The position numbers and the translations under genes were made by a program. DNA of 64,000 bases from an uncultured Acidobacteriota bacterium (lineage in GTDB: Bacteria; Acidobacteriota; Thermoanaerobaculia; UBA5066; DATFVB01). Below are positions 19,823 through 59,638 of this stretch, piece after piece (position 1 is the first letter of the stretch; each line of letters starts with the position of its first letter). Under the pieces are notes generated by a model. That model was not told where the DNA came from and did no database searches. It saw only the letters and a program-made list of their open reading frames with translations. The stretch is from assembly GCA_963813155.1 (NCBI GenBank), contig CAWEYG010000001.1:832001-896000 (forward strand), written 5' to 3'.

Positions 19823-22233
19823 CTACTTCGGCAGCGTGACGTTGAAATCGATCTTCGCCAGCTGCTCCGGCGCCTTGCCGAGCTTGCGCAGGAACGGCAG
19901 CCAGCGCGGGTCGGCGTGGATCTTGTCGAACAGGTTCTCCGTCACGATGTCGCTGATGCCGGGGTCGCCGTACGCGACCGCCTTGTCGAGCCACGCGAAC
20001 GCCTTGTCCGCCTCGCCGCGGAACGCGTAGACGTAGGCGATGTTGTAGGGCGCATCCTTCTCGTACTTCGCGATCAGCGCGGCGAGCGCAGCGTCGGAGT
20101 CGGCCTTGCGCCCGAGCGCGTGGTACGCCATCGGCAGACCGATCATCTTCCACAGGTCGACCGTCTCCTGCTCGAACTCCGCCAGCGCGCCCTGCGGATC
20201 GCTCTTCAGCAGCAGCGCATTGCCGAGTTGGGCGTGCGCGCCGCCCCGGCCCGGGGCGAGGCTCAGCACGGTACGGCACGACGCGATCGCCGCGTCGAAC
20301 CGGCCGGCCAGCCGCTGGTAGCAACCCAGGTTGAAGAGCGCCTGCACGTTCACCGGATCGCGGCGGACGACGATCTCTTCGAGCGCCAGCGCCTCACCCA
20401 GGCGGCCCAGAGACTGGAGCAGCGAGGCGCTGTTGGTCAGCACGTCCAGATCCGTGGGATCGATCGCCAGTGCACGCTTGAAGTGCTCCGCCGCTCCGGC
20501 GAGGTCGTTGTCGCTGTCTGCGATCCAGCCGAGGTGGGCGTGGGCCGGTGCGTAGTCCGGATCGATCGCGAGTGCCTTCATCGCCGCCTCACGCGCCTGG
20601 GCGAACCCTTCCTTGTTGGGCAGCAGGCCTTGGCCTGTCTCGTTGGCGAGGTTGCGGGCCAGCCCGTCCCACGCCGGGGCGTAGCGTGGATCGATCGCTA
20701 GCACCTTGCGGAACAGCGCGTCGGACTGCTGGAATGCCTCGGCGGTCTTCTGTCGTTCGAGCTGGACGGCCTGCAGGTACAGCGCGTAAGCCTCGGGATC
20801 GGTCGTGCGCGCCTTCGGTGCCGCGCCGAGCAGCGTGACCTTGAGCTGCTTCACCACGTCGGCCGCGATCTCGTCCTGGATCGCAAAGATGTCGGTAAGC
20901 TTTCGGTCGTAGGTCTGCGACCAGAGGTGCGTGTCCGTTCCAGCCTTGATCAACTGCGCCGTGATCCGAACCTCGTTTCCGGCCTTCCTCACCGAGCCTT
21001 CGAGCACGTGCGCCACGTGCAGCGTGCGCGCGATCTCCGGAATCGCGACCTCTTTCCCCTTGAACGAGAACGACGACGTCCGCGCCGTGACCTGGAGCTC
21101 CGGGATCTTCGCGAGCAGGTTCAGAAGTTCTTCGGAGATGCCGTCGGAGAAGGACTCATTCGCTTTGTCGTCGCTCATGTTCACGAACGGCAGCACGGCG
21201 ATCGACTGCTCGGATATGTCGGCCTGGGCTCCCATTCGCCAACCGCCGCGTTTCAAGAGCAAGAGACCGGCGACCACGGCAACGAGAACGCCCGCAGCCG
21301 CAAAGATGGCGATTCGACGGCTGGCCGGAGCCTGAGCAGCCGCCTGCACGCCACTCGCGCTTGAGCTCGCGCTCGTCGAGCCGGAAGCTTCCGAAAGCGC
21401 GAAGACAATGTCCCGGGCGGCCTGAAAGCGATCCTCGGGTTTCTTCTCAAGACAGTGGCGGACGACGTGATCGAGCGCGATCGGGATGTTTCGACCCGAT
21501 TCGGTCAGGTCGGGCGGGTCGTCCCGCATGATCGCCGCCATCGTGTCGCTCGGCGTGTCCCTCTTGAAGGCCCGATGGCCGGAAAGCATCTCGTAGAGGA
21601 CCGCTCCGAAGGAAAAGATGTCGGAGCGGTGATCGACTTCGCGCCCCCGCACCTGCTCGGGCGACATGTATCCCATCGTTCCCATCACGGTGCCGGGCTC
21701 GGTCCCCTTCGACTCTGTCGGCGCGCTCGTCTCGTCCTCGCTCTTGGTCATCTCGGTCCTTTTCGCCAGGCCGAAGTCGAGGATCTTCGACGTGCCCGTC
21801 TTTCGAGACGAAGAGGTTCTCGGGCTTCAGGTCCCGGTGGACGATCCCCTTCTCGTGCGCGGCCGAGAGCCCCTGCGCGACCTGCATCGCAAAATCGACG
21901 AGCCTGCTTCTGCGGGAGCGCTCCGGAGTCGAGCCGGTCGCGAAGTGTCTGGCCCGAGAGCAGCTCCATGACGGCGTAGGCAACGCCGTGATCGGTCCCG
22001 AAATCGAAGATCGAGAGGATGTTCGGGTGCGAGAGCGCGGCGACGGCCTTCGCTTCGCGTTCAAACCGGGCGAGCATGTCCGGGTTCGACGCGACCGCCT
22101 CGGGAAGCACCTTGATCGCGACGTCCCGATCGAGCTTCGAGTCCTTCGCCCGGTACACCTCGCCCATCCCTCCGGCGCCGATCGGCGCAAGAATCTCGTA
22201 GGGACCGAGGCGGGTGCCGGAAGCTAGGCTCAA
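19823..22233 (-). CDS. STK2: Ser/Thr kinase + TM + TolB-N-like domain + TPR; frameshifts ~21905, ~21790, ~21755
   Basis: Joins ORFs 21748-22233, 21447-22190 (HRDLKPEN) and 19823-21751 ([11 protein letters not shown], TPRs). Confidence 0.88.
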
Positions 22234-22392
22234 GATTTCTCCTGTGGTGGTGATTCTATCCTTCCCGCCAGAAGGGCGGTTCTCGGCCGCGACTCGGATC
22301 GAGAAGGCCTCTCAAAACGCCGAGACCGGGGTTTAAAGACGCGATCGGTGGTGAGGGGTTGCGGGTTCGCCCGCGAACGTTGGCTGGGTAGG

Positions 22393-25074
22393 TTACGGCG
22401 CCTTCGCTTCCCGGAGTTTTCGTTTCACTTCTGAAAACCAGTTGATGGTCATGTTGAGTCTTGTCTGCGCTCCGGGGTTTGGGTCCTCCGCGACGATGAA
22501 TCGTTTTCCATCATGGGCGACATCGAAGGCGAAGATCTCGTGGTTCTCGAACAGGGTACGGGGAGCTCCGGCCGCGAATTCGTCCTTTGCCGAGCTGACG
22601 GGAGCCGCGAGAAATTTCGTGCCGCACAGATAGAAGATCTCGTTTCCGGTCGGCGACCAGACAGGGACCGCCCCTCCATCGGTTGAGACCCGCCATTTCC
22701 TGTCCTCACCTGAAGAGGGCCGCACGTAGATCTCCGCCCGGCCGGATTCCTCCGACTGGTAGACAACCCATCGGCCGTCAGGCGAAAAGGATGCGGTGAA
22801 GGGGTCCAGAAACATCGACTTGAAGAGGACCTTTCTTTCCTCTTGAGAGGATGCGCCGCTCAGGCGGCGAACACAAAGCTCGTTGAGACCGTCGGAGAGG
22901 GTTCGGACATAGAGCACTTTCGAGCCATCCGAGGAGATTCTCATGGGGTCTTCCTCGGAATCCGACGGAAAGAGAAGTTGTGCGCTGCCGCTGTCGTCGG
23001 CGGCCTTCGAGAAGATCTGGTAGAACTTGTCCTTCTCGAGACCGAAATAGATCCGGCGTCCGTCGGACGACCAGGCGGGATCCTCCGCTCGTGCCGGGAG
23101 CGAGAGCGTCGTCAGAGAGAGTCTCGCCAGGTCAAGGATCGCCATGGAATTGCCAATGTTGATCGCGACCCGGCTCCCGTCGGGCGATAGAGCCAGCAAC
23201 AAGTATTCGTGATGGGGCACTTTGATCGGCTCGGCGTGTCCCTCGCGATCGATCCAAGAGAGCATCGATTCGCCGACGGCGGCGTTGGCGGGAGCAGTCA
23301 CCAGGATGCCGTCCCTGGAGAAATCCATCTGGGAAAAGCCGGCGGTATTGAGCAGGACGTTGCGAGCGACCTCCACAGGAGATCCTTCGACTTTCAATGA
23401 CCGAGTGTCGAAGGAGACGGCATAGAGCGCCCCGGCCCGGGCGTAGACGAGAAAACCGCCCGGCAGATAACGCGGGTAGGTTCCGCCCTTGATCAAGACC
23501 TTGCGCTCGCCGTTGTCGAGCCGCTCGGCAACGATTGTCGCCTCGTCCCAATCCGCGCCTTTGCCGATCGCATAGAGGAGGACCTTCCCGCCGGGTAAAA
23601 GCTCGGGCCAGCGATGCAGCTGTTCCCCCTCCTTGGTCCGAATCCGCGTCACCGGGGCAGCCGCGCCGCCATCCGCCGAGACTCGATAGATCGGCACGTA
23701 CATGTTCGGGACGAAATAGATCGATCCGTCTTCGCCCCAGGTGGCGCCGCGAAAGATCGGAGCGTCGCAGAGCGTGACCGGCGTGCCGCCGGCGAGCGCC
23801 ACTTTCTTGAGCTTCGGGCCTGCGACGAAGCCGATCCATTTTCCGTCGGGGGAGAAGAAGGGAAAGCTCCCGCCTTCGGTTCCGGGGATCGCTGCCGATT
23901 CCTCGGAATCCAGCGATCGCAGCCGAAGCTCTGAAGTCACGCCCTTCACAACGCTGTAGACGAGCCGGGAGCCATCCGGCGAGATCGCGAGGGTCCTCCA
24001 TTGGTTCAAAGCAAGACGCTCGCCTCCGCTCGGGAGAAACTGGGCCCGTAGGACTCTCTGCTCCCGCTCTGTCGCCCGTCGCATCGAGCCGAACAGAAAA
24101 AGACCGAGCAGAAGCGCCAGGAGCGTCGAGCCGGAGGCGATCCCCCAGCCAATCCTCTCCCGGCTCTTTCTCCGCGAGACAACGGTCGCGGGTGCTCCTG
24201 CCTGCGACCCCGCCTCGGCGATCCACGCGAGCTCGCTCTTGACATCGCGTGCGCTCTGCCAGCGGTCCTCCGGATCCTTGGCGAGGCAGGTCTTGACGAC
24301 GCGGTCGAGCGCCGGGGGCGTCATCGGGGCAACCGCCGAGATCGGACGCGGATCGTCCCTCAGGATGGACGGAAATCAGCGACACCCGGCTTGCCCCTGT
24401 GAACGCTTTTCTTCCGGTCGCCATTTCGTAGAGCACGCAGCCGAACGCGAAGATGTCGGACCGCGGGTCGGCCTCCTTGCCCTCCAGCTGTTCCGGCGAC
24501 ATGTATTGGAACGTCCCGAGAATCGTTCCTCTGCTCAGTCAGAGGGCGCTCGGCCTCCGTTGGCAGCGACGAAAGATCCGAAAGTTCGGTTCGTGAACCC
24601 ACGGCTTTGGCAAGGCCGAAGTCGAGGAGCTTCACGCCCGACTTCGTGATCATCACGTTGCCGGGCTTCAAGTCCCGGTGGACGATACCGGCCCGGTGGG
24701 CCTTGTCGAGCGCGTCGGCGATCTCGACACCGAACTTCAGGACCTGCTCGGTCGGGAGTGCCCCCTTCTCGAGCCTCTCGGACAGCGTCTGGCCCTCGAG
24801 TAGCTCCATGACGAGATACTCGACGCCCGTCGTGATTCCCCACGTCGTGGAGCGTGCAGATGTGAGGATGGGTGAGTTGCGAGATCGCCTTTGCCTCGCG
24901 CTCGAAGCGTGCTTTCAGGTCCGCGTCGGCCGAGAGGTGGGAAGGAAGCACCTTGATGGCGACGCTTCGGTCGAGCCGTGTGTCCCGCGCCTTGTACACC
25001 TCCCCCATGCCACCCGCGCCGAGCGGCGAGAGGATCTCGTAGGGGCCGAGGCGAGTACCGGCAGCGAGGCTCAA
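22393..25074 (-). CDS. STK3: Ser/Thr kinase + TM + PD40 propeller (type A); frameshifts ~24830, ~24535, ~24370
   Basis: Joins ORFs 24535-25074, 24360-24809, the N-part of 23132-24502 and 22393-24324. Confidence 0.88.
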
Positions 25075-25110
25075 GGATTCTCCTGTGGCGGGGATTCTAT
25101 CCTCTCAACC

Positions 25111-25213
25111 CGAACACCGCCGGGCAGGCCAACTTCCCCTCTTCGGATCAGCGGGATGCGATCGCGACGAAATTCTCTAGGCTCGAATCCGGGTCAAAGT
25201 CGGGCTACGGCGG
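25111..25213 (+). repeat. Degenerate copy of the tRNA-Arg 3' end plus its downstream flank (att-like)
   Basis: CGCCGGGCAGGCCAA.TTCCCCT..GATCAGCGG.ATGCGATCG..GAAATTCTC..CGAATCCGGGTCAAA..CGGGCTAC aligns by eye with 19628-19718. Confidence 0.8.
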
Positions 25214-25278
25214 GAAGAAAGCGGTTTTGGTTTCGCGCGATGAGCTTCTCGATCGTGGCCGAACACTTCGTGATTGAT

Positions 25279-26448
25279 CTAACGCCGCGGTTTTCTGAAG
25301 AAGTCGGCAAACGCCACTGCGTGCTTCCAGCCACCAGCCTTTCCCCATGAATTCGTCGCGATAGCGGCGACAAGATCCTCCTGCGGAAAATTCACAAGGC
25401 AGGCATTGAACCCATCCACACTCCCACACTCGTAGACCATGGTGCGGCCAGCCGAGTCGTTGACGACCCGCCACATCAGCGCCTGTTTGTAGGCCTCGTG
25501 ACCGGGCGGACCGTTTTCGCGGAACCAGAGTTTGGGGCTTGTCTGCGGAGAGAACATGGCTTTGACCGTCTCGGGTTTCATCAGCCGTCCGTGGTTGAGG
25601 GCGGCGCCAAGCCGGACGAGATCCTCCGACGTCGAGAGCATTCCGCCGCTGGCAAATTTGTAGGTTCGGTCGTAAACCGGGATCGGAACGGGCGGTACCT
25701 TGTCGATGTGATAGCTCCGCGCTCGATTGTCGTCCACCCGACCTGGCACGTCAAAGGACGTCCGCGTCATCCCGGAAGGTTCCCAGACGTTCTCTTTCAT
25801 GTAGGTCTCGAACGGAGCGTGAGTCGCCTCCTCGATTACGCCTTGCAGGAGATTGACCGCGTAAGAGGAGTAGAAGAAATACTTTCCCGGCGTGAAGAGC
25901 AGCGGGTCGTCCTTGAAGAGCGCGATGGCCTGTTCAAATGTGGGGTATGCCATCGTGTTGCCCTGCACCGGCATGTCGGGAACATCCGTATCGCGATAAT
26001 GACGGATGCCGGAGGTATGGCTCATCAATTCCCGGATCGTGATCGGGACTCCCTTGTCCGGGAACGACGGCACGTAGCGACGGACATTGTCATCCAACCG
26101 GATCGTCCCTCTCTCGACAAGCTGCATCACGGCAACGGCGGTATTGGCCTTCGAGAGCGATCCGATGTTGAAGACGGTGTCGCTGCGCGCCGCGACGTGA
26201 TTCTCCAGGTCCGCGACGCCGGCGCCCTTCGAGAAGACGATCTTTCCCTTCGAGGCAACCGCGGCTGTCAGAGCCGGCGTACCGCTCGTTTTCTGGACAT
26301 TCTCGAGGTAGGCCGTTGCTTTGGCTTCAGCGGCGGGCGTGGCTAAGGTAGCGGCTTTCGGCGCCGTGGCTAGACCGACGACAGGCGTGGCTAGACCGAT
26401 GACAAGGATGACTCCTTGCCGGAGCAGACGAGTCGAAATGGTTTTCAT
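25279..26448 (-). CDS. Secreted serine hydrolase (class C beta-lactamase/PBP-like family)
   Basis: Signal peptide; SxxK (GSLSK), LMSHTSGI, LLFTPGKYFFYSS. Confidence 0.88.
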   Translation of the reverse strand: MKTISTRLLRQGVILVIGLATPVVGLATAPKAATLATPAAEAKATAYLENVQKTSGTPALTAAVASKGKIVFSKGAGVADLENHVAARSDTVFNIGSLSKANTAVAVMQLVERGTIRLDDNVRRYVPSFPDKGVPITIRELMSHTSGIRHYRDTDVPDMPVQGNTMAYPTFEQAIALFKDDPLLFTPGKYFFYSSYAVNLLQGVIEEATHAPFETYMKENVWEPSGMTRTSFDVPGRVDDNRARSYHIDKVPPVPIPVYDRTYKFASGGMLSTSEDLVRLGAALNHGRLMKPETVKAMFSPQTSPKLWFRENGPPGHEAYKQALMWRVVNDSAGRTMVYECGSVDGFNACLVNFPQEDLVAAIATNSWGKAGGWKHAVAFADFFRKPRR

Positions 26449-26599
26449 GCAACCCAGTATACGGAGCTGGCAACGGAGCTGGCAGTGGCAGCGTCGATTC
26501 CTGTATTGCATTCGATCGAGAGCCCGGGAAATGCCTTCATTCACTGAGTTGAGGCTTCGTCAGCCGCCACTAACGTTCGCCTCGGTCGTTGAAGGTTTG

Positions 26600-26627
26600 G
26601 CGCGTTCGAATCGCGCCGGGCAGGCCA
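26600..26627 (+). repeat. Exact 28-bp duplicate of the tRNA-Arg 3' end (attR-like)
   Basis: Identical to 19614-19641. Confidence 0.9.
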
Positions 26628-48172: not shown

Positions 48173-48260
48173 CGGGAGATTCTAGCCGCGGGGCGCTCGA
48201 CCGGCTGTCGGCTTCCTGCTCCGAGCGGATCGCCGGCCGAGCCCCCTTTACCGAGCCGCT

Positions 48261-48773
48261 TCAGGCGGCCTTCTGCTCCCGCGTCGGGGCGGCGGCCCGG
48301 CGAAGCACGAGCGGGCCCGCGCCCAGGAGCAGCCCGGTCGCGAGCGAGGCGAATCCCCATCCCGCGCCCGACCCGAAGATCCCGAGAGCGCTGTCGAGCG
48401 AGAGCGCGCCGGGGCCCGCGAACGCAACCGCCACAGCGGACGCGGCGAGAACCAGCGGGTATTCGTAGCCGCCGCTCGGGTTGAAGAAGCCCTTTGCGAG
48501 GTGCACGCTGACGACCGCGACGAGCATCACCGCGACGATCGCCGCCGCCGCGAGCGGAGTCCCGAACCCGGCGGCGAGCAGCAGTCCGCCTCCCGCCTCG
48601 GCGAGACCCGAGAGAACCGCCTGCACGCGCCCCGGCCGGAATCCGAGCTGTTCCAGAAACGAGCCCGTCCCGGCGAGGCCGTACCCGCCGAACCACCCGA
48701 AGAGCTTCTGGCTTCCGTGGGCGGCCAGCGTCAGGCCGACGACCGTGCGCAAAACCAAAATTCCGAGATCCAT
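48261..48773 (-). CDS. DoxX family membrane protein
   Basis: AHGSQKLFGWFGG, EAGGGLLL, GGYEYPLVL. Confidence 0.9.
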   Translation of the reverse strand: MDLGILVLRTVVGLTLAAHGSQKLFGWFGGYGLAGTGSFLEQLGFRPGRVQAVLSGLAEAGGGLLLAAGFGTPLAAAAIVAVMLVAVVSVHLAKGFFNPSGGYEYPLVLAASAVAVAFAGPGALSLDSALGIFGSGAGWGFASLATGLLLGAGPLVLRRAAAPTREQKAA

Positions 48774-48895
48774 GTTTACCTCCTGCAGCTATCTATTGGA
48801 TATCTGCTGTCATTTCGATAGTGATATTGCCAAACTCGCTTCCCTTTGTCAAGCACCTTCCCAACGGGAAGCATAAGTGATAGGATGCCAAGGAG

Positions 48896-49276
48896 ATGGG
48901 AAAACGGATCGACCCCCAGTGCCGCGCGTTCCAGAGCGCAATCCAGGTCCTCAGCCGCCCGTGGAACGGGCTCATCCTCGGCCTGCTGCAGGGAGGGTCG
49001 CTGCGTTTCAGCGAGCTCGAGGAGCTCTCGCACGGCCTCGGACCCAAGACCCTCTCCGGCCGCCTGAAGGCGCTCGAAGTGCGCGGGCTGATCGCGCGGT
49101 CGATCGAGCCGGGCCCCCCCGTCCGCGTGTCCTACACCCTGACCGCAAAAGGCCAGGCTTTCGAGAAAGTCACCGAGGCGATCGAACGATGGGGACGGGA
49201 CCTCGTCGCCGACGAGGTCGCCGCGGCTCCCGTCCTCAGTGCTCCAGCTGCGCGGTCCAATTCAAGACGACGGTGA
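48896..49276 (+). CDS. HxlR family winged-helix regulator
   Basis: C..FQSAIQVLSRPW, LRFSEL, LSGRLKALE, PPVRVSYTLT; divergent from DoxX. Confidence 0.9.
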   Translation: MGKRIDPQCRAFQSAIQVLSRPWNGLILGLLQGGSLRFSELEELSHGLGPKTLSGRLKALEVRGLIARSIEPGPPVRVSYTLTAKGQAFEKVTEAIERWGRDLVADEVAAAPVLSAPAARSNSRRR

Positions 49277-51953: not shown

Positions 51954-54566
51954 CGCACTCCCTTGACGAGATAGAGCGTCGAGAGCGCGCGGTCGAAGTC
52001 GTACGCGTAGGAACGGCCGTCGCGCGCGACCACGACCCCGTAGCCACCCTCGACGCCGGCGGGATCGGACAGGGGAAAGCTCCTTCCAGAGCTCGCGGCG
52101 GCCCGACTCGACGTCGATGCGGTACACGGGAATCGGGAGCTGGTTTCGGCGGTAGACGAAAATGGAACGCCCGTCTCCGCTCCAGCCGGAGATCACATCG
52201 TGCTGCTCGGCCCCCGCCAGGTCCTTCGGCGGACCGCCGTCGATGGGAAAGATCTGGAACGACATGCTGCCCGGGTCGCCGTGAATCGCGAAGAAGCGAG
52301 AGCCGTCCGGCGAGATCGGCCGGTTGCCAAAGAACCCGTCGTAGCCCGGCGGCGTCACGGGCCGGAGCTTCGGCGCGTCGATCTCGGCGACGAAGAATCG
52401 CGGCAGCTCGCCGGCGCGCTTGCCGAGAATCAGCATGCGCTTGCCGTCCGGGAGCAGCCAGGCGCTCCGGAGCATCTCGAGCTCCGGAATCTCGATCATC
52501 CGCGGGCTTCCCGCGCCCGTCGGCGTGAGCACGATCCGGTTCCGCCGGACGGTTGCCGCGCGGATGGACTCCCCCGAGGGGCTGCCAATGACGAAACGGC
52601 CGTCGGAAGAAAACATCGTCGCGAAGCCTTCGCCGAGTTTCACGGCGGGCGAGCCATCGGTCGGGCGAACGTAGATCGACCCCGCCGCAGCGGCGCCCCC
52701 GCCGAACTGGTCGAGGAGGATCGTCCGGCCGTCCGGCGAAAGGTCGGAGGCGTAAGAGGCCGAGAGCCAGCCGATCGGGCGCTCTGCGGCGTCTTTTTCT
52801 CCCCGGAAGAGGACGTTGCTCGTGAATTCGACCGCTTCGAGCAGAAGCGTGCCGTCTGCCGACCGGTCGTGGATCCGGAATGTTCCGGCGAGCCGAAGCA
52901 CAGCCCGGTCCCGCCCCCTCGTCGAGACTGCATGGATCGTCGAGCTCTGGTCGCCGTCGACTTCGGAATACCAGATCTCATCTCCCCTTTTCGACCACGC
53001 GATCCCCGAGTCGCTCGCGAGGGGCGCGAGGACCTTCTTCCCGGCATGGAGATCGACGACGCAAAGCGCGTTGCTCACGATGCTCGCTCCGGAGCTCGAA
53101 GCCTCGATGAACGCGAGACGTCGGCCGTCCGGCGAGACGCGCAGCCGCCAGATGTGCGTGTTTCCCTTGTAGACGACGTTTCCCTGGGGAAGCTCGATCT
53201 GCGAGCCGAGGTCCGGCGTGTCGCGGACGACGGCGAGGCGCCCGTCGGCCGTCCAGTCCGCGTCGATGACGTTGTCCGCGATCTCCCTCGGGGCGCCTCC
53301 GGAAATTGGCGACCGGGCGAGCGTGCCCGAGAGACTTCCGTTCCACATCCGCGGGCGCAGCTGCAGCGCGAGCTCGCCGCCGTTCGAAACCGAGACGAGC
53401 GACGCGCCCTTCTGGCCCAGGCTCGTCGATTCCGACTGTCCGGGTTCCGACGAGTACACGTCTGCCGGCTCCCCTTCCCAGAGGGCGCCGTAGTACACCG
53501 CGCGCCCGTCCGCCGAGAACCGAGCTGTTCGCACCGTTCCGCGGCGCCAGGTCAACCGCTCGAAGCGCGGAAGGTCTGCTTTTCCGCCGCGGCCCGCAAG
53601 GAACGCGACAGTCGCAACGACGGCGGCGCCGGCAACAGCGACAGCAGCCGCGATCGTCCTTCGACGTCTCCCCGCAGCCGGGCTCGCTCCAGCCGGCGCG
53701 ACTCCGGACGTCTGAGAGAGACCGGAAACCGCCTGAAGCGCGAACGCGAGGTCGCGGGCCGACTCGAAGCGCTCTCCCGGGCTCTTCTCGAGGCAGTGCG
53801 CGACGACGCTTTGGAGAGCAGACGGAAGCTCCGGCCGGGAGGTCGTGAGATCCGGGGGGTCCGCCTTCAGGATCGCGCTCATCGTCTCGACGGCCGAGTC
53901 TCCGGAGAACGCCCTCTTTCCGGAGAGCATCTCGTAGAGAATCGCGCCGAAGGAAAAAATGTCGGACCGCGGATCGACCGCTGCTCCCCGGACCTGCTCC
54001 GGCGACATGTAGCCGACGGTCCCCATCACCGCGCCCGGCTCGGTCTGGGCCGCCATCGTGGGAGCGGAAGTCTCCGCCTTCTCCGGCCGTTCGACCTTCG
54101 CCAGCCCGAAGTCGAGGATCTTCACGTGCCCATCCGCGAGGACGAAGACGTTCTCGGGCTTGAGATCCCGGTGAACGATGCCTTTCGCGTGGGCGGCGGC
54201 GAGGCCTCGAGCGATCTGCAGCGCGACTTCGATCGCCTTCCGGGGAGCGAACGCTCCATTTTCCAACCGCTGCCGAAGCGTCGCGCCCTCGAGCAGCTCC
54301 ATCGCGGCGTACACGACCCCGTTCTCGCTTCCGAAATCATGAATCGCCAGGATGTTCGGATGCGACAGCGCGGCGACCGCCTTTGCTTCGCGCTCGAAAC
54401 GCGCGAGCGCTTCGGAGTTGCCGGCGAGCGATTCGGGAAGGACCTTGACCGCGACGTCCCTCCCGAGCCGCGTGTCGCGCGCTTTGTACACCTCGCCCAT
54501 TCCGCCCGCGCCGAGAGGCGAAAGGATCTCGTACGGCCCGAGGCGGGCGCCGGAAGCCAGACTCAA
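51950..54566 (-). CDS. STK9: Ser/Thr kinase + TM + propeller (type B); frameshift ~52072
   Basis: Removing one base restores SDPAGVEGG..SYAYDFDRALSTLYLVKGVR*, which matches the ends of STK6 and STK11. Confidence 0.88.
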
Positions 54567-54612: not shown

Positions 54613-57051
54613 TCAGTAGTCGAAGTGCAGCTGCTTCAAGAGCGCCACGAAACGCGGTTCGGAGCGAAGCGGATCGAAGATCCTGTCTTGCTTGAGGTAG
54701 ATCATCCACTGCGAATCCGCCGCATGGGCGCTTTCGAGGTACTCCAGGGCTCGCGCTCGATCGCCGAGCCCGAGATAGACGATCGCGAGGTTGAACGGAG
54801 GGACGTAACCGTGCAACGACTTCTTCTTCAGCTCCTCGATCGCCGCCATCGCGTGCGCCCGGTCACCCGAAGCCCCGTACGCATACCCGAGCCACGCGGT
54901 CACGAAGGGGGGCGACTCCATCGCCCGGGCTTTCTCGAATTCCGGAATGGCGTCGGCGACCTTCCCCTCCTGGATGTCGACCCATCCGAGAGACCATTGA
55001 GTGAAGAAGAAGGTCGGGTCGAGAGCCCCGGCCCTCCGGGCCTCATCCCTTGCCACCTGGAACTTGCGCTGGCCGGCCAGGGCGATGACCGCGTCGTTGG
55101 GAATTTGCGGGGAAAGGGGGTCGAGCTCCGCCGCCCGCCGGGACTCGGCGACCGCCTCCCCGAGCCGCCGCCCCTGGAAACCCAGACTCAGACCGAACTG
55201 ATCGTGAGCAAACGCATAACTCGGATTGAGCGCGAACGCGCGCCGGAACTCGCTCTCGGAGCCCGTCCAGTCGAAGTCATACCAGACCTTGTACACCGCG
55301 AGAGAGGTGTGGGCTTCGGCGGAATCCGGGTCGAGCTGGATTGCTCTCTCGGCCGCGGCCTTTGCCTTCGGCTTCGTCTCCGAGGAGGTCAGCACTCCTT
55401 CGTTGAAAGCGGCCCAGAGGTAGGCGTCCGACAGGCCCGAGTATGCGGGCGCGAGGTCCGGGCTCAGTCGGACCGCCTCCTCGAACAGCGCGATCGCCTT
55501 CGACAGGTTTTCGTCGCTCGGCCGGTTGAAGAAGTAGCGGCCCTTCAAATAGGCGTCGTGCGCCTCGGGGTTGACCGTCGGGGCCGCGGCCAGCCGGGAG
55601 CGCTCGTTCGGCGTGAGCTGCACGTGGATCTCGCCGGCGATCGCGGAAGCCAGCTCGTCCTGGAGCGCGAGCACATCGCGGGAGTTGCGCTCGAAGCTCT
55701 TGGCCCAGAGCTGCCTGTCGGCCCGGGCATCGACGAGCTCGGCCGTGATCCGCACCCTGTCGCCCGCCCGCAGCACCGACCCCTCCACCACCGCGTCGAC
55801 GTCGAGTCTCTTCGCGATCTCCGGCGCCGGCGGCCGCTGCCGCCCCTTGAACTGCATCGCCGATCCGCGTGAGATGACCCGAAGCTGGCTGATCGTCGCG
55901 AGGTCGGCCGTCAACTCGTCGGTCATCCCTTCGGCGAAGTAGTCCTGGCTGGGATCGCCCGAATAATTATCGAGAGGAAGCACGGCAATCGATCGAATGG
56001 AGACGGAGCGGGAGCCGAGGCCGGAGCGCCGGGCGAGATACCACACCAGCGACACGGCAAGAGCGGCGGCGAGTCCCATGCCGGCGATTCGCAAAGCCTT
56101 GCGCCGCGGCTCGAGAGCAGTCGAGCTCTTCGCCGAAACCGGGACGGCCATCGGCCGGCTCCCGATCCCGCCGGAGCTCGCCTGCGCCAAATTGAAGGCC
56201 AGGTCCCGGGCGGTCTGGAATCGGTCTTCGGGCATTTTCTCCAGGCAGTGCCGAACGAGCTCCTCGAGCGCTTGCGGGACGTTCGTCCCGACGGAAAGCT
56301 CCGGCGGCTCGTCCCGCATAATCGCCGCCATCGTGTCGCTCGCGGTGTCCCTCTTGAACGCCCGGGTGCCCGAGAGCATTTCGTAGAGAATCGTTCCGAA
56401 CGAAAAGATGTCCGAGCGGTGATCGACTTCGCGCCCCCTCACCTGCTCGGGCGACATGTAGCCGACGGTTCCCATCACCGTGCCGGGCTTCGTGTCGAGC
56501 GCGCGATCCGCGCGAGCAAATCGATCGACCGACTGGGTCGGCGCGCTCGTTTCTTCGCCGACCCGACTCTTCTCCGTCCTCTTGGCCAGGCCGAAGTCGA
56601 GGATCTTCACGTGCCCGCCACTCGAAATGAAGAGGTTCTCGGGCTTCAAGTCCCGGTGGACGATCCCCTTCTCGTGAGCCGCCGAAAGGCCGCGGGCGAC
56701 TTGCATTCCGAAATCGGCGACCTGCTTCGCAGGGATCGGACCGCGGTCGAGCCTGTCGCGGAGCGTCTCCCCCTCGAGAAGTTCCATGACCGCGTAGGCC
56801 ACGCCTTCGTGGTATCCGTAGTCGTGAATGGCCAGGATGTTCGGGTGAGAAAGCGCCGCGACGGCCTTGGCCTCGCGCTCGAACCGGGAGAGCATGTCGG
56901 GGTTGGCGGCAACGGATTCGGGCAGCACCTTGATGGCGACGTCGCGGTCGAGCTTCGTGTCGCGAGCCCGGTACACCTCCCCCATTCCGCCCGCTCCAAG
57001 CGGCGACAGGATTTCATACGGTCCCAGCTTCGTACCCGCCGCGAGGGTCAA
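54613..57051 (-). CDS. STK10: Ser/Thr kinase + TM + TolB-N-like + TPR
   Basis: TTG start (LTLAAGTKLGPY); SIAVLPLDNYSGD..YFAEGMTDE; TPRs. Confidence 0.92.
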   Translation of the reverse strand: MTLAAGTKLGPYEILSPLGAGGMGEVYRARDTKLDRDVAIKVLPESVAANPDMLSRFEREAKAVAALSHPNILAIHDYGYHEGVAYAVMELLEGETLRDRLDRGPIPAKQVADFGMQVARGLSAAHEKGIVHRDLKPENLFISSGGHVKILDFGLAKRTEKSRVGEETSAPTQSVDRFARADRALDTKPGTVMGTVGYMSPEQVRGREVDHRSDIFSFGTILYEMLSGTRAFKRDTASDTMAAIMRDEPPELSVGTNVPQALEELVRHCLEKMPEDRFQTARDLAFNLAQASSGGIGSRPMAVPVSAKSSTALEPRRKALRIAGMGLAAALAVSLVWYLARRSGLGSRSVSIRSIAVLPLDNYSGDPSQDYFAEGMTDELTADLATISQLRVISRGSAMQFKGRQRPPAPEIAKRLDVDAVVEGSVLRAGDRVRITAELVDARADRQLWAKSFERNSRDVLALQDELASAIAGEIHVQLTPNERSRLAAAPTVNPEAHDAYLKGRYFFNRPSDENLSKAIALFEEAVRLSPDLAPAYSGLSDAYLWAAFNEGVLTSSETKPKAKAAAERAIQLDPDSAEAHTSLAVYKVWYDFDWTGSESEFRRAFALNPSYAFAHDQFGLSLGFQGRRLGEAVAESRRAAELDPLSPQIPNDAVIALAGQRKFQVARDEARRAGALDPTFFFTQWSLGWVDIQEGKVADAIPEFEKARAMESPPFVTAWLGYAYGASGDRAHAMAAIEELKKKSLHGYVPPFNLAIVYLGLGDRARALEYLESAHAADSQWMIYLKQDRIFDPLRSEPRFVALLKQLHFDY

Positions 57052-57074
57052 AGGAGAGTCCTCAGGCTCATCGG

Positions 57075-59638
57075 CTAGCGCAAGCCGTCGACGGTGAACA
57101 GGTAGGCGCCCTGATGCAGCGCCGTGTAGGCGTACGATTTTTCGTCCGCGGAGAGCAGGACGTTCGACACGACAGCCACTCCCGCGGCGTCCGCCGGCCC
57201 CACTTCCCGAAGGAGCGTGCGCTTTCCGGTCGCGATGTCCACCCGCTCGACGCGCGTCGGGACGAGCGTCGTGCGGCTGACGATCAGAGATCTTCCGTCG
57301 GCCGACCATCCGGAGACGTTGTCGTCCGGGGTCAGGCCCGGCACAGCCCGGACCGGGCCTCCGCCGACCGGATAGATCCGGTGGTTGCCGGAACCAAACG
57401 CGACGACGGAGCGCTCGTCGGGCGAGATCTTGCCGTCCCACGTTCCCTCGGGCGTGACCGGCCCCGGATTACCGCCTTTCGTCTCCGCGACGTAACAGCG
57501 CCGGCCTTCCCCGGATCGCACACCGCAGAGGAGGATCCGCTCGTCGCCGTGAAAGAACTGGCCCGTCTCGTACGATTCAAAGCCCTTGAACGAGATGTTC
57601 CGGGCCTCGCCCGCGCCCGTCGGATAGATCATGAGACGCGGCGGGTTGGTGAAAACGGCGGCGAGAACCGACTTTCCGTCGGAAGACAAATCCAGGGGGT
57701 TGCCTTCCCCGAGGCGAACCGACGTCGAGGCGTCCATCTTGCGAAGATAAGTCGAGTAATAAGGACCGGCGGCCGCCGTATCGTCGGACAAGAGAACGGT
57801 CTTGCCGTCGCGCGAGACCCCGCCGACGGTCGAATAGTCGTAGACAGGGAGAAATCGCGCTCGGGGCTTCCGACGACGCCGGCGATCGCGGAGGCGCGCG
57901 TCGTGCCCGCGGAGACGAGGATCCGGCCGTCCGGCGCGGCATCGAAGATCGTGAGGCTCTCCGAGTTCACGAGAACGGTCCGCAGGCGGCCCCCGCGGCT
58001 CGAGCGCGCGAACCTTGAGGTCCGTGCCCTCGTTGCCGGCCGAGGAGAACAGCACCTGCTTTCCGTCCGGCGACCAGGCGAGGCCTTCTTCGCCGGAGTA
58101 GTCGGGCGATTTCGCGACGAGGCGACCCGAGCGGTCGATGATCTCCACGTCCCCGCGATCGTCGGCGTCCACCGGATGGCGCATGAAGGCCAGGCGGCTT
58201 CCGTCGGGCGAGACGCGCACGTCGCTGAAGTATCCGCTGCTCGTGGCGAGGATCTTCGACGCGGGATACTCGAGCCGGTCCTTCCCGTCGACACGGCGGA
58301 CGATCGCGAGCTCCGATCCGTCCGGCGACCAGTCGGCGTCATGAACGTCCTTCAGGAGCTCCCGCGGCGAGGCCTCCCCGATCGGCATTCGGGAAAGTGT
58401 TCCGAGATAGATGCGCTGGTAGAGAAATTGCGCCTGCGTTAGAACCGCCAGCTCTCCCTTCGAAGACACGGCGAGGAGCCGGGTGTCGGGAAGTGAGAGC
58501 GACCGTGCCTGTGCGGACTGGGCATCCTTGATGAACAACTCGTTTCGGTTCCCCGTCGGTGCGGCGGAAAAAATAACGGTCTTGCCGTCCGGGGCGAAGC
58601 GGGCGTTCGTCACGAACTGGGGACGAAACGTCAGGCGGGTGAACGACAGGACCGCCGGCGCCGACCCTTTCCGTCCCGCGAAGTAGGCGGCGGCGAGTAG
58701 GAGTGCGACGGCGACGACGGCGGCGGCAAGCGATCGCGCCCGGCCGGACGACCCGCCGTCGAGAGTTTGCCGACGGAGCTGCCGCTCGTCGAGCCGGAGA
58801 GCGCCTCGAGGTCGAACGCGACGTCTCCGGCCGAGTGGAACCGGGACTCCGGGTTCTTCTCGAGACAGTGCCGGACGATCCGGTCGAGCGCCGGCGAAAT
58901 TTTCCGGGCCGTTTCTTCGGTCTCCGGCGGCTCGTCTTTGAGGATGGAATTCATCGTCTCGACGGCGGAATCCTTCTTGAATGCGCGCGTGCCGGTCAGC
59001 ATTTCGAAGAGGATCGCGCCAAAGGAAAAGATGTCCGTTCGCTGGTCGGCGTTTCGCCCGCGCACCTGCTCCGGCGACATGTACCCGACCGTCCCCATGA
59101 CCGTTCCCGGCTCCGTGCCGGCGGGCGTCGTTGGCGCGTTCGTCGCGGCCGATTCGGAGGAGAAGACCTTTGCGAGGCCGAAGTCGAGGATCTTGACGCG
59201 GCCGTCGAGCGTCAGGAAGAGATTCTCCGGCTTCAAGTCCCGGTGAATCACGCCCTTCTCATGGGCCGCTGCCAGTCCTTTCGCGATCTGGATCGCGATC
59301 TCGACGGCCTTGCGCTGGGGCAGCGCGCCGTTTTCGAGCCGGGCGCGGAGATCTTCCCCTTCGAGCAGCTCCATGACGGCGTACGCGACGCCGCCCTCCT
59401 TCCCAAAGTCGTAGATGCCGAGGATGTTCGGGTGGTTCAGGGCCGCGACCGCCCGCGCTTCTCTCTCGAATCGCGCGAGCACTTCCGGGTGCTGCGCGAC
59501 GGCCTCGGGGAGGACCTTGACGGCCACATCGCGGCCCAGCTTCGTGTCGCGCGCCCGGTACACTTCTCCCATTCCGCCCGCACCGAGAGGCGAGAGGATT
59601 TCGTAGGGACCGAGGCGGGTGCCCGCCGACAGGCTCAA
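57075..59638 (-). CDS. STK11: Ser/Thr kinase + TM + propeller (type B); frameshifts ~58760, ~57995, ~57850
   Basis: Joins ORFs 58631-59638, 57075-58613 and part of 57629-58342. Confidence 0.88.

What the first reader, a model, noticed from the sequence alone, without database searches (positions are those of the whole stretch)
19823..59638. Co-oriented array of receptor-like Ser/Thr kinases with a constant kinase and variable sensors
Seen: ten kinase genes (~26 of ~40 kb), plus STK1 at 6.5-9.2 kb, all on the minus strand. All begin M(S/T)LxxG(T/A)(R/K)LG(P/H)YE and keep the VAxK, HRDLKPxN and DFG motifs and one TM helix. Their external domains fall into four classes: propeller A (STK1, 3, 8), propeller B (STK6, 9, 11), propeller C (STK7) and TolB-N/TPR (STK2, 4, 5, 10). 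No phosphatase, FHA protein or ECF sigma factor is visible in the window. Known: kinase expansions occur in Acidobacteriota, Planctomycetota and Myxococcota. Inference: this is a receptor repertoire, analogous to plant RLK clusters, growing by duplication and sensor exchange and possibly feeding a shared target encoded elsewhere.
Basis: partly seen in the sequence, partly recalled or inferred. Interest (0 to 1): 0.85.

Follow-up and report, generated by a model that had tools for sequence, protein, structure and literature searches.

The report
Receptor kinase gene array in acidobacterium
A soil acidobacterium carries ten neighbouring genes for membrane receptor kinases, one of several such clusters in a kinase-rich lineage, so the array is real but of a known kind, with signs that some of these genes arrive on small mobile islands next to tRNA genes.

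Summary
Ten Hanks-type Ser/Thr kinase genes lie on the minus strand at 19823-59638 (25,772 of 39,816 nt), plus STK1. All have the catalytic motifs, one membrane helix and a large outer domain. Seven outer domains are tandem TolB/PD40-like beta-propellers. Four are a TolB_N/FlgO-like domain plus TPR.

Five of the 11 genes are broken by eight single-base frame breaks. At five of these sites, ~99% identical contigs from a soil metagenome lack the extra base. An essential synthetase is also split, so most breaks are probably assembly errors.

The array is not special in this genome: 56 kinases in 3.8 Mb, and 37 have another within 10 kb. All 40 sampled relatives in the order are also kinase-rich. 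The paralogs are old (dS about 1), except STK2/STK4.

Inside the window, kinase clades match sensor classes, so recent sensor exchange is not supported. Older swaps are. A congener has 3 kinases at this locus against 10 here.

New points:
- STK2-STK3-beta-lactamase form a 7 kb islet bounded by tRNA-Arg 3' end repeats.
- STK2/4-type kinases sit beside tRNA ends in three genomes, and one copy is 96% identical across genera.
- Six array genes share a 21 nt leader motif.

Verdict: a known kind, of moderate interest.

The parts
6526..9181 (-). STK1: kinase, TM helix and PD40/TolB-like tandem propeller (class A). One frame break near 9118-9121.
   Evidence: Pfam Pkinase and PD40. Frames. Contigs of runs X1 and X2 leave out 1 base at 9118.
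19565..19641 (+). tRNA-Arg(TCT), convergent with STK2. It marks the left end of the islet.
   Evidence: ARAGORN. Rfam tRNA, 70.1 bits.
19642..26597 (.). 6.96 kb islet holding STK2, STK3 and a beta-lactamase-family gene. It is bounded by direct repeats of the tRNA-Arg 3' end. GC is 0.628.
   Evidence: The 2 kb composition windows at 22001-28000 read 0.617-0.628.
19823..22233 (-). STK2: kinase, TM helix, FlgO/TolB_N-like domain and TPR. Two frame breaks near 21903 and 21788.
   Evidence: An X1 contig leaves out 1 base at 21789.
22393..25074 (-). STK3: kinase, TM helix and PD40 propeller (class A). Three frame breaks near 24830, 24533 and 24370.
   Evidence: X1 contigs leave out 1 base at 24829, 24533 and 24370. 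No sensor match above 44% identity in five relatives.
25279..26544 (-). Beta-lactamase family (PF00144) gene inside the islet. GC is 0.593.
26598..26627 (+). Displaced copy of the tRNA-Arg 3' end, matching 29 of 30 nt. It lies 61 nt beyond the STK4 stop codon.
   Evidence: There are only two copies in the genome. None was expected by chance in 100 shuffles.
26689..29103 (-). STK4: intact. Kinase, TM helix, FlgO/TolB_N-like domain and TPR. Closest paralog of STK2.
29126..31777 (-). STK5: intact. Kinase, TM helix, TolB_N-like domain and TPR. The likely start is the CTG at 31777, not the upstream ATG of the 1057 aa ORF.
   Evidence: The G001 ortholog is 85-91% identical.
32829..34373 (-). Vgb_lyase-like beta-propeller protein. 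It has no kinase domain.
34470..36278 (+). Response-regulator receiver, DUF4388 and GAF protein on the opposite strand, inside the array.
37161..38273 (-). Second Vgb_lyase-like protein. The match is weak, 42 bits against a cut-off of 50.
38321..40900 (-). STK6: intact. Kinase, TM helix and tandem beta-propeller (class B).
   Evidence: AlphaFold2 model with pLDDT 90.9. Foldseek matches to two-propeller proteins. 4355 homologues at E <= 1e-10.
41015..43708 (-). STK7: intact. Kinase, TM helix and PD40 propellers (class C).
   Evidence: The G001 ortholog has 92% kinase and 85% sensor identity.
43740..45059 (-). S41 peptidase.
45012..49273 (.). Non-kinase block: DUF4097 (45012-45740, +), MazF/PemK-like (46009-46371, +), unassigned ORFs, DoxX (48264-48788, -) and HxlR (48884-49273, +).
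49236..51953 (-). STK8: intact. Kinase, TM helix and PD40 propeller (class A). Its ATG overlaps the STK9 stop codon (ATGA).
51950..54566 (-). STK9: kinase, TM helix and tandem propeller (class B). One frame break near 52067-52070 creates the false 1777 aa fusion ORF with STK8.
   Evidence: The G001 ortholog sensor is 82-94% identical.
54613..57051 (-). STK10: intact. Kinase, TM helix, TolB_N domain and TPR. It starts at the TTG at 57051.
57075..59638 (-). STK11: kinase in frame -1, TM helix and propeller in frame -3 (class B). One frame break near 58743.
22238..22258 (-). Leader motif TAGAATC-N(4-9)-CAC(A/T)GGAGA just upstream of the STK2 start. The same motif lies at 25079-25099 (STK3), 29108-29128 (STK4), 31785-31805 (STK5), 43714-43733 (STK7) and 59643-59663 (STK11).
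   Evidence: The genome holds 7 occurrences and all 7 lie before kinase starts. The motif is conserved before orthologs in G001, G004 and G005.

Best explanation
This is a real, largely intact cluster of ten co-oriented genes, eleven with STK1, for single-pass receptor Ser/Thr kinases. The genome is an uncultured soil member of Acidobacteriota, and its closest named relatives are Thermoanaerobaculia.

Gene plan. Each gene encodes a cytoplasmic Hanks-type kinase, one membrane helix and a 470-570 residue periplasmic sensor. The sensor is either a tandem TolB/PD40-like beta-propeller or a TolB_N/FlgO-like domain followed by TPR.

Context. The cluster is one of about eight in a genome with 56 such kinases, and the whole order is kinase-rich. 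Most members are old paralogs kept under purifying selection. The kinase half is strongly constrained and the sensors more loosely.

How the locus came to look like this. Its composition is shaped by gain and loss of whole genes rather than by recent in-place duplication or sensor swapping. At least the part nearest the tRNA (STK2, STK3 and a beta-lactamase-family gene) was added as an islet without an integrase, bounded by tRNA-Arg 3' end repeats. The single-base frame breaks in five genes are most likely consensus errors of the assembly.

Inferred mechanism, not shown here. A periplasmic ligand binds the propeller or the TPR domain. This promotes dimerisation and autophosphorylation of the kinase, as described for M. 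tuberculosis PknD and PknB. The kinase then phosphorylates cytoplasmic targets. FHA-domain proteins and PP2C-type phosphatases that could take part are encoded elsewhere in the genome. The STK11-10-9-8 and STK5-4 blocks are probably co-transcribed. Several genes carry their own conserved -10-like box and Shine-Dalgarno leader.
For: Domains and motifs.
- Searches give the kinase domains and motifs.
- Searches give weak TolB hits for the STK6 sensor (E 0.0058) and stronger ones for the STK8 sensor (2e-8).
- Searches give a confident two-propeller model for the STK6 sensor.
- One search gives TolB_N above cut-off in STK10 and FlgO above cut-off in STK4. STK2 is just under the cut-off and STK5 is weak.

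Genome and lineage context.
- 56 kinase genes; 37 of 56 lie within 10 kb of another, against a random mean of 13.7. 26 of 27 adjacent pairs share a strand.
- 41 of 41 genomes searched in the order (G000 plus 40 relatives) match, with 28-136 first-look candidates.

Age and selection.
- Kinase dS is 0.78-1.41 for 54 of 55 pairs. STK2/STK4 has 0.40.
- Omega is below 1 throughout.

Orthology and turnover.
- G001 keeps STK5, STK7 and STK9 orthologs in the same order between tRNA-Arg and the DAO oxidoreductase gene (window 59731-60984). It lacks the other seven.

Islet.
- A 29/30 nt repeat of the tRNA 3' end, present only twice in the genome, with GC 0.628.

Frame breaks.
- All 11 genes read through without stops after 8 single-base skips.
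- X1 contigs, with about 1% mismatches, leave out one base at 5 break sites.
- An Ile/Val/Leu-tRNA synthetase-family gene and the M3 peptidase are also split between frames.

Operon hints.
- The gaps are 23, 46, -4 and 22 nt.

Leader motif.
-.

Mechanism.
- Taken from passages of PMC3601408.
Against: Frame breaks may be real.
- X1 differs from the window by about 1% in substitutions, so it is another strain. Its intact frames do not prove that this strain's genes are intact.
- The breaks at 21903, about 52068 and about 58743 were not checked. The first may be among 23 rows not shown. The other two lie outside the laid stretch.
- The breaks in STK2 are not in homopolymers.
- Frame breaks look denser in kinases than elsewhere in the window: 8 in 28 kb against 1 found in about 20 kb. 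That difference is not significant, and detection outside the kinases is weaker.

The comparison with G001 has limits.
- G001 is 78% complete and itself full of frame breaks. Its shorter locus could be an assembly collapse.

The islet is incomplete as a mobile element.
- No integrase lies in or near it.

Nothing here tests function.
- No ligand, substrate or expression data exist.
Confidence: 0.7

Rival explanations
1. The array is a repertoire like a plant RLK cluster. It grows in place by tandem duplication and by swapping sensors between neighbours. Its sensors diversify, and all members feed one shared target.
For: - The kinase half is constant and the sensors vary.
- The genes are co-oriented and clustered.
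- STK2 and STK4 are duplicates with mosaic near-identical tracts that suggest gene conversion.
- Sensor class maps to several kinase lineages genome-wide.
- Six genes share a leader motif, which would fit common regulation.
Against: - dS is about 1 for 54 of 55 pairs.
- For 8 of the 11 sensors, the best paralog lies outside the window.
- Inside the window, kinase clades and sensor classes agree.
- Orthologous sensors are 85-91% identical between congeners.
- Omega is below 1.
- No common target was identified. The response-regulator/GAF gene inside the array was not among the window genes found in G001's locus with tblastn.
Confidence: 0.2
2. The array is decaying. The five genes with frame breaks are true recent pseudogenes, and the cluster is being lost.
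For: - There are eight frame breaks in 5 of 11 genes.
- Genome-wide, 11 of 56 kinase domains are split.
- The STK2 breaks are not homopolymer errors.
- X1 is a different strain, with about 1% substitutions.
- G001 has only 3 kinases at the locus.
Against: - No in-frame stop codon appears once single bases are skipped, and all motifs are kept.
- Near-identical contigs lack the extra base at 5 sites.
- A synthetase gene and a peptidase gene in the same assembly are also split.
Confidence: 0.12
3. The array is a set of anti-phage or conflict sensors, PD-T4-6-like defence kinases held in a defence island.
For: - PADLOC PD-T4-6 models match 6 of 6 tested kinases at E down to 1e-96.
- A MazF-like gene lies in the array.
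- Part of the array is an islet next to a tRNA.
Against: - The matches cover only the generic kinase domain, residues about 5-310.
- The sensors are periplasmic, so they cannot meet phage proteins inside the cell.
- The other 8 proteins scanned gave no defence-family hit. The one exception was a weak receiver-domain match.
- The same gene family makes up 56 genes of a small genome.
Confidence: 0.05
4. The array is an assembly artefact that joins dispersed paralogs.
For: - Short-read contigs jump between kinase domains. Joints skip 3021, 4103 and 6994 nt, with 23-37 nt on the shorter side.
- The assembly is reported as 3.76% contaminated.
Against: - The tool itself warns that joints of this kind come from repeats or other organisms.
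- An independent contig bridges the STK2 start and the STK3 end, at 22205-23539.
- The sensors are unique sequences.
- G001 keeps STK5, STK7 and STK9 in the same order and with the same flanks.
- The contig is 924 kb long.
Confidence: 0.03

Closest known systems
M. tuberculosis PknD, and the PknB/PrkC class of receptor Ser/Thr kinases
   Same: - N-terminal Hanks-type kinase, one membrane helix and an extracytoplasmic sensor.
- PknD's sensor is a beta-propeller.
- Activation by N-lobe dimerisation is the model I borrow (passages of PMC3601408).
   Different: - PknD has a single six-bladed propeller. That it is of the NHL type is recalled, not taken from a call.
- Here the propellers are TolB/PD40-like and tandem, about 520 residues long.
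- The other sensor type here is TolB_N/FlgO plus TPR.
- No ligand or substrate is known for any member.
Ser/Thr kinase expansions in Myxobacteria and Planctomycetota (for example 'Ca. Uabimicrobium amorphum')
   Same: - Dozens to hundreds of membrane kinases with periplasmic WD40 or TPR arrays.
- Some duplicates lie side by side (abstract and passages of PMC11032199).
   Different: - A different phylum and a much smaller genome: 56 kinases in 3.8 Mb.
- The sensors are PD40/TolB-type rather than WD40.
- The paralogs here are old rather than species-specific bursts.
Ser/Thr kinase paralog family of 'Ca. Solibacter usitatus' Ellin6076 (Acidobacteria)
   Same: - The same phylum.
- Many kinase paralogs, mostly under 50% identical over their full length.
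- No positive selection found (passages of PMC3174227).
   Different: - That genome is 9.9 Mb.
- In the passages I read I saw no statement on clustering, islets or sensors.
tRNA-integrated genomic islands and cis-mobilizable elements (CIMEs)
   Same: - A regenerated tRNA and a displaced 3' fragment mark the island ends (abstract of PMC4383910, as shown in the listing).
- A CIME keeps attL and attR but has lost its integrase (passage of PMC5704250).
- Tandem accretion at the same att site is described there.
   Different: - The cargo here is receptor kinase genes.
- No integrase-bearing parent element was found.
- Excision or transfer was not tested.
Plant receptor-like kinase clusters
   Same: - Clustered genes that pair a conserved kinase with diverse ectodomains.
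   Different: - This is an analogy only, recalled from general knowledge.
- The kinase lineages, ectodomains and mode of evolution are unrelated.
- Diversifying selection is not seen here.

Membership tests
Hanks-type Ser/Thr protein kinase (Pfam PF00069) | Match to the Pkinase profile above the curated cut-off | tested here: met
   All 11 genes match. In the five broken genes the matches fall in two to four frame pieces.
Hanks-type Ser/Thr protein kinase (Pfam PF00069) | Catalytic residues: G-loop, VAIK Lys, alpha-C Glu, HRD...N, DFG and APE/SPE | tested here: met
   Present in 11 of 11 aligned sequences.
Hanks-type Ser/Thr protein kinase (Pfam PF00069) | Phosphotransfer activity | not testable with these tools
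   Needs an assay of purified protein.
Receptor-type bacterial kinase (PknD/PknB-like) | N-terminal kinase, a single membrane helix and a C-terminal extracytoplasmic domain | tested here: met
   One hydrophobic segment at residues 304-340 passes the threshold in 10 of 11. The STK8 helix is under the threshold but visible in the sequence. Sidedness is inferred, not computed.
Receptor-type bacterial kinase (PknD/PknB-like) | Six-bladed NHL beta-propeller sensor as in PknD | tested here: not met
   No NHL family was among the Pfam hits. The hits were PD40, TolB_N, FlgO and TPR. The STK6 model matches two-propeller proteins.
tRNA-integrated genomic island / CIME | Intact tRNA plus a displaced 3' fragment as direct repeats at the two ends | tested here: met
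   19612-19641 and 26598-26627 match at 29 of 30 nt. These are the only two copies in the genome.
tRNA-integrated genomic island / CIME | Tyrosine integrase inside the element | tested here: not met
   The islet holds only STK2, STK3 and the beta-lactamase-family gene. The PF00589 matches lie on C6, C2 and C3, and none is near. The absence fits a CIME, not an autonomous island.
tRNA-integrated genomic island / CIME | Deviant base composition, and absence from the same site in a relative | tested here: met
   GC is 0.628, and 0.593 for the beta-lactamase-family gene, against about 0.66 for the genome. In G001 the tRNA-Arg abuts the STK5 ortholog. G001 is 78% complete and error-rich.
tRNA-integrated genomic island / CIME | Excision, a circular form or an empty site in the population | not tested
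   The one read-laying run showed no such joint among the 15 listed. A further 188 were not shown.
PD-T4-6 antiphage kinase (PADLOC) | Match to the PD-T4-6 models over the whole protein | tested here: inconclusive
   6 of 6 kinases match strongly, but only over the kinase domain. The sensors are unmatched.

The most novel reading that the evidence does not exclude
STK2/4-type receptor kinase genes are the conserved end module of a family of islets that lack an integrase, resemble CIMEs and insert into tRNA 3' ends (Arg-TCT, Ala-CGC, Ala-GGC). These islets move between genera. They seed or extend kinase arrays by accretion at the same att site. Part of the bacterial receptor repertoire would then be horizontally exchangeable cargo rather than a product of in-place duplication.
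Probability: 0.4. Interest if true: 0.6.

Novelty: new member of a known kind. Interest (0 to 1): 0.4.

Why it matters
The array itself is another example of a known pattern. Bacteria with complex soil lifestyles hold large families of membrane Ser/Thr kinases with periplasmic repeat domains. Its value is descriptive. It shows that a small, 3.8 Mb acidobacterial genome devotes 56 genes to such receptors, mostly in co-oriented clusters, and that the paralogs are old and conserved.

Two side results could matter more if they hold:
- Receptor kinase genes sit at the ends of tRNA-bounded islets in three genomes. One copy is 96% identical between genera whose core genes are 81% identical. That would make sensory receptors mobile cargo.
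- A 21 nt leader is shared by kinases of different classes. It offers a handle for asking whether the clusters are regulated together.

The work also warns that five "broken" genes and a 1777 aa "double kinase" are probably products of assembly errors.

Tried and rejected
- PADLOC scan. The PD-T4-6, mad6, MkoA and Stk2 models hit only the generic kinase domain, so this is not evidence of defence.
- Promoter and terminator consensus scan of 48500-60500. It found 0 promoter-like sites against 0.5 expected and 13 terminator-like sites against 8.5 +/- 3.1. This is uninformative.
- Rfam over the window. Only the tRNA matched.
- Integrase search. None lies near the islets.
- Positive selection. Pairwise omega is below 1 everywhere. 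At dS about 1 the estimates are near saturation, so this is weak evidence.
- General gene conversion as the reason for the constant kinase. I rejected it because kinase dS is as high as sensor dS. The exception is STK2/STK4.
- A search at 93% identity or more for repeated DNA between the window and the genome. It gave only a 62 nt palindromic element and no long kinase repeats.
- Runs X2-X4 hold only small shares of the stretch. I use them for nothing except the row at 9118.
- Depth and the paralog-jumping joints were not used.
- The distal ends of the Arg islets are not alike, in contrast to the Ala islets.
- No complex prediction was run.
- No supplementary files of papers were opened.

Full report
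**What is there**

The window is G000:C1:832001-896000, part of a 3.81 Mb assembly in 23 contigs. The assembly has 66% G+C and is rated 90.8% complete.

Pfam scans covered 46 minus-strand ORFs, 44 plus-strand ORFs and 19 further ORFs. A whole-genome Pkinase search was also run. Together they place kinase domains on the minus strand for eleven genes.

| Gene | Coordinates |
|---|---|
| STK1 | 6526-9181 |
| STK2 | 19823-22233 |
| STK3 | 22393-25074 |
| STK4 | 26689-29103 |
| STK5 | 29126-31777 |
| STK6 | 38321-40900 |
| STK7 | 41015-43708 |
| STK8 | 49236-51953 |
| STK9 | 51950-54566 |
| STK10 | 54613-57051 |
| STK11 | 57075-59638 |

STK2-STK11 sum to 25,772 of the 39,816 nt of the finding.

All eleven start with x-S/T-L-x-x-G-T/A-R/K-L-G-P/H-Y-E. 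All eleven keep the G-loop, the VAIK lysine, the alpha-C glutamate, HRDLKPxN, DFG and S/APE. A hydrophobic helix at residues 304-340 passes my threshold in 10 of 11. The STK8 helix falls just under it.

**The sensors**

An all-against-all comparison covered the regions after the kinase domain of 55 of the genome's 56 kinases. It gives two large groups:
- 26 propeller-type sensors, including STK1, 3, 6, 7, 8, 9 and 11.
- 11 TPR-type sensors, including STK2, 4, 5 and 10.

The other 18 fall in two pairs and 14 singletons. Many of those are cut short by frame breaks.

Pfam finds PD40 repeats in STK1, 3, 7, 8 and 11. The sensors of STK6 and STK8 have weak to moderate sequence matches to TolB.

The STK6 sensor had no Pfam hit in the local library. 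Its AlphaFold2 model is confident: 51-row alignment, pLDDT 90.9, pTM 0.87. The best Foldseek matches are proteins with two propellers:
- 2ymu;
- 1nr0, described as two seven-bladed propellers;
- 1k32, the tricorn protease.

This sensor family is very large. Of 8000 candidates scored, 4355 proteins had E <= 1e-10. Sources name them kinase / Tol biopolymer transport component, and the named ones come from Thermoanaerobaculia and other Acidobacteriota.

In the TPR class, the results for the domain between the helix and the TPR repeats are:
- STK10: TolB_N above the cut-off.
- STK4: FlgO above the cut-off.
- STK2: just under the cut-off.
- STK5: weak.

Its fourth class is correct.

**Frame breaks**

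Five of the eleven genes are not continuous ORFs in this assembly:

| Gene | Frame breaks |
|---|---|
| STK1 | one |
| STK2 | two |
| STK3 | three |
| STK9 | one |
| STK11 | one |

The STK9 break makes it run on into STK8, giving a 1777 aa ORF with two kinase domains.

Each break is a single base. When eight bases are skipped, with X at the break, all eleven genes read through without a stop codon.

I laid Logan contigs of four soil-metagenome runs on 9001-29000. Run X1 holds 58% of the sampled words. Its contigs differ from the window by about 1% in substitutions. They leave out exactly one base at 9118, 21789, 24370, 24533 and 24829. These are five of the six break sites in the laid stretch. 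The sixth, near 21903, was not among the 12 rows shown; 23 further rows were not shown. STK9 and STK11 lie outside the laid stretch.

The same assembly also splits other genes between frames:
- a tRNA-synt_1 family synthetase gene at C3:193970-195929;
- the M3 peptidase of the window, near 5120-5138.

Two DnaK genes, a GyrA-type gene and RpoB are unbroken.

I conclude, at about 75%, that the breaks are consensus errors. Because X1 is another strain, real recent inactivation is not excluded.

**Context in the genome and the lineage**

A profile built from the window's kinase domains finds 56 kinase genes in the genome.
- 37 of 56 have another kinase within 10 kb. Random placement gave a mean of 13.7 and a maximum of 28 in 2000 trials.
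- 26 of 27 adjacent pairs share a strand.
- Other clusters include seven genes at C2:753-772 kb and five at C2:102-118 kb.

All 41 genomes searched in the order (G000 plus 40 relatives) match. Their first-look candidates range from 28 to 136 per genome. Only 47 per genome were scored, so these are rough counts.

In 80 sampled genomes of the phylum, candidates range from 0 to 197. This genome has 68.

The genome also holds 9 FHA matches, one PP2C_2 match, about ten SpoIIE-type phosphatase genes and 14 Sigma70_r2 matches. None lies in the window.

Kinase expansions are already described in several groups:
- Ser/Thr kinase paralog expansion in 'Ca. Solibacter usitatus' (passages of PMC3174227);
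- membrane kinases with periplasmic WD40 or TPR arrays in Planctomycetota;
- tandem duplicates in Myxobacteria (abstract and passages of PMC11032199).

**Age of the paralogs and the question of sensor exchange**

Pairwise Nei-Gojobori estimates were made for all 55 pairs.
- Kinase dS is 0.78-1.41 for 54 pairs. For STK2/STK4 it is 0.40.
- Within a class, kinase dN is 0.12-0.16 and sensor dN is 0.67-0.83.
- For STK2/STK4, dN is 0.08 in the kinase and 0.16 in the sensor.

The constant kinase therefore reflects stronger purifying selection, not homogenisation.

STK2/STK4 is the exception. It is a mosaic:

| Codons | Nucleotide identity |
|---|---|
| 1-45 | 98-100% |
| 183-228 | 96-97% |
| 725-804 | 91-93% |
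| Elsewhere | 52-89% |

This pattern fits conversion tracts.

The kinase tree has 55 rows and was built with the careful method. It places the window's genes as follows:
- STK1/3/8 in one starred clade.
- STK2/4/5/10 in another.
- STK6/11 in a third group (support 84/84, not starred); STK9 is unresolved within the starred 19-row clade that holds that group.
- STK7 apart.

These groups are the sensor classes.

Genome-wide the picture is different.
- The 11 TPR-type kinases need 4 changes on the kinase tree. Holding them as one clade is rejected (delta lnL 145, p-AU 1.5e-83).
- In the sensor tree, the STK7 sensor is sister to that of C2_117465m with support 100. Their kinases lie in different starred clades. 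The AU p value is 0.008, but I chose this pair after seeing the trees.

Exchange has therefore happened, but not recently among these neighbours.

**Turnover of the locus**

In G001, which is in the same genus, 78% complete and itself full of frame breaks, the order is: aldehyde dehydrogenase, tRNA-Arg(TCT), STK5 ortholog, STK7 ortholog, a fragment of an unassigned gene, STK9 ortholog, DAO oxidoreductase. That is three kinases where the window has ten.

The orthologous sensors are 82-94% identical. This is much like the flanking enzymes, at 87-96%. The sensors are therefore conserved between orthologs.

In G004, a complete genome of a sister genus, the 48 kb between the two flanking markers holds one kinase and no tRNA.

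Matches to the other sensors in five relatives:

| Sensor | Result |
|---|---|
| STK3 | No match above 44% in five relatives |
| STK4 | Four copies at 74-79% in G004 |
| STK6 | 60% in G004, 70% in G002 |

G002 is flagged unpublished.

**An islet next to the tRNA**

The last 30 nt of tRNA-Arg (19612-19641) recur at 26598-26627 with one mismatch. These are the only two copies in the genome. No match was expected in shuffled sequence.

The 6.96 kb between them holds exactly STK2, STK3 and a beta-lactamase-family gene. Its G+C is 0.628, and 0.593 for the beta-lactamase-family gene, against 0.66 for the genome. STK4 follows the displaced fragment after 61 nt.

A regenerated tRNA plus a displaced 3' fragment is the mark of site-specific island insertion (abstract of PMC4383910, seen in the listing). 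An element that keeps both att sites but has no integrase is called a CIME (passage of PMC5704250). There is no integrase in the islet or near it.

The same layout recurs elsewhere:
- In G004, the tRNA-Arg has a 44 nt repeat enclosing 2.35 kb. Two STK2/4-type kinases follow it.
- In G004, the tRNA-Ala(CGC) has a 44-45 nt repeat enclosing 3.08 kb. That stretch holds one STK2/4-type kinase, and another such kinase follows it.
- In this genome, tRNA-Ala(CGC) at C2:355757 has a repeat 15.5 kb away. An STK2/4-type kinase sits next to the tRNA, followed by HlyD, ChrB and hydrolase genes.
- In G001, a fragment of such a kinase lies 423 nt from a tRNA-Ala(GGC).
- On the 6.5 kb contig of G005 that holds a fifth locus, no tRNA was found.

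The kinase at this genome's tRNA-Ala is 96.1% identical over 2400 nt to the G004 islet copy. The aldehyde dehydrogenase, the permease and the DAO genes of the two genomes are 81.4%, 81.6% and 73.9% identical. The far ends of the two Ala islets are also homologous, 87% over 227 nt, while the flanks outside are not.

This points to recent transfer between genera of an islet with a kinase at one end. In G004 the two Ala units share about 480 identical bases, not only the att core. Tandem duplication followed by conversion therefore remains an alternative to repeated integration.

**Expression signals**

The gaps between genes are as follows:

| Pair | Gap |
|---|---|
| STK11 to STK10 | 23 nt |
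| STK10 to STK9 | 46 nt |
| STK9 to STK8 | -4 nt (ATGA overlap) |
| STK5 to STK4 | 22 nt |

These distances fit co-transcription.

The motif TAGAATC-N(4-9)-CAC(A/T)GGAGA occurs 7 times in the genome. All 7 lie 5-8 nt before a kinase domain start: STK2, 3, 4, 5, 7 and 11, and the tRNA-Ala kinase. The hexamer TAGAAT occurs 254 times in the genome, and 19 of those are within 120 nt upstream of a kinase.

The same leader precedes the three G001 orthologs and STK2/4-type genes of G004 and G005. I read it as a -10-like box plus a Shine-Dalgarno site with a short leader. This is an inference.

Ten of the eleven genes use TTG, GTG or CTG as the likely start codon.

**How it most likely works**

The following are shown here:
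- the domain plan;
- intact catalytic motifs;
- a single membrane helix;
- propeller or TPR sensors;
- purifying selection.

The following are inferred from the family:
- The sensor lies in the periplasm and binds an unknown ligand.
- Binding promotes kinase dimerisation and autophosphorylation. This was demonstrated for PknD, which also has a propeller sensor (passages of PMC3601408).
- Signals pass to cytoplasmic targets.

Both sensor types are built from parts related to TolB. Envelope-derived ligands are therefore a reasonable first guess, but nothing here tests it. A response-regulator/DUF4388/GAF gene lies inside the array on the other strand, but it was not among the window genes found in G001's locus.

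**Verdict**

The array is a member of a known kind of expansion and not a singular locus. The frame breaks and the double-kinase ORF are probably artefacts. The tRNA-bounded islets with kinase cargo and the shared leader are the parts worth following.

I saw the same FHA match at C1:81309-81500.

Noticed in passing
window 6459-6519, 9200-9260 (inverted) and 15214-15276; also C4:3715-3787, C1:778929-778989, C3:460410-460474 and C6:215258-215320: A palindromic element of about 62 nt (CCTCACCCCC...GGGGGTGAGG around an inner inverted repeat) occurs at least seven times in the genome. Two inverted copies bracket STK1 directly after its stop codon and before its start. It looks like a REP-type intergenic repeat.
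   Followed up: partly
window 49236-54569: The 1777 aa ORF with two kinase domains is not a fusion protein. A single-base break near 52068 hides the normal end of STK9 (…LYLVKGVR, then the stop). That stop overlaps the STK8 ATG as ATGA.
   Followed up: yes
window 4356-6132; G000:C3:193970-195929: An M3 peptidase gene and a tRNA-synt_1 family synthetase gene are each split between two reading frames. This shows that the assembly carries indel errors outside the kinases too.
   Followed up: partly
G000:C2:355757-371342 (L092): A second islet. tRNA-Ala(CGC) and a 44-45 nt copy of its 3' end enclose 15.5 kb with GC 0.632. The contents are an STK2/4-type kinase next to the tRNA, then HlyD, DUF1259, ChrB, enoyl-CoA hydratase and hydrolase genes. 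There is no integrase.
   Followed up: partly
G000:C3:181847-187493; G000:C1:605212-610285: tRNA-Gly(CCC) has a displaced 3' end copy of 52 nt about 5.5 kb away. tRNA-Glu(CTC) has one of about 29 nt about 5 kb away. I did not look at what lies between them.
   Followed up: no
G000:C2:356229-358443 against L089:10572-12969 (G004): A receptor kinase gene is 96.1% identical in DNA between two genera whose flanking core genes are 74-82% identical. This suggests recent horizontal transfer.
   Followed up: partly
window 34470-36278 (+): A response-regulator receiver, DUF4388 and GAF protein is encoded on the opposite strand in the middle of the array, between two Vgb_lyase-like propeller genes.
   Followed up: no
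window 46009-46371 (+): A MazF/PemK-like toxin ORF (E 2.4e-20). I did not look for its antitoxin partner.
   Followed up: no
G000:C1:248572-250146: An FHA domain and a SpoIIE-type phosphatase domain lie in one 661 aa open frame. Such a protein could read out kinase signals.
   Followed up: no
starts of the 11 window kinases and about 30 others in the genome: Non-ATG starts dominate. In the window they are TTG in 7, GTG in 2, CTG in 1 and ATG in 1. Among the roughly 40 kinases whose start could be aligned, about two thirds begin with TTG, GTG or CTG. I did not compare this with other genes of the genome.
   Followed up: no
G000:C2:753533 and G000:C20:6594: Two kinases on different contigs are almost identical in the kinase domain, with branch lengths of 0.015 and 0.012. 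Their upstream regions are also nearly identical. Contig C20 may be a strain variant or a duplicate of the C2 array.
   Followed up: no
L089:4497-5243 (G004): A dual-specificity (DSP-PTPase) phosphatase gene lies 2 kb upstream of the tRNA-Ala kinase pair in the sister genus.
   Followed up: no
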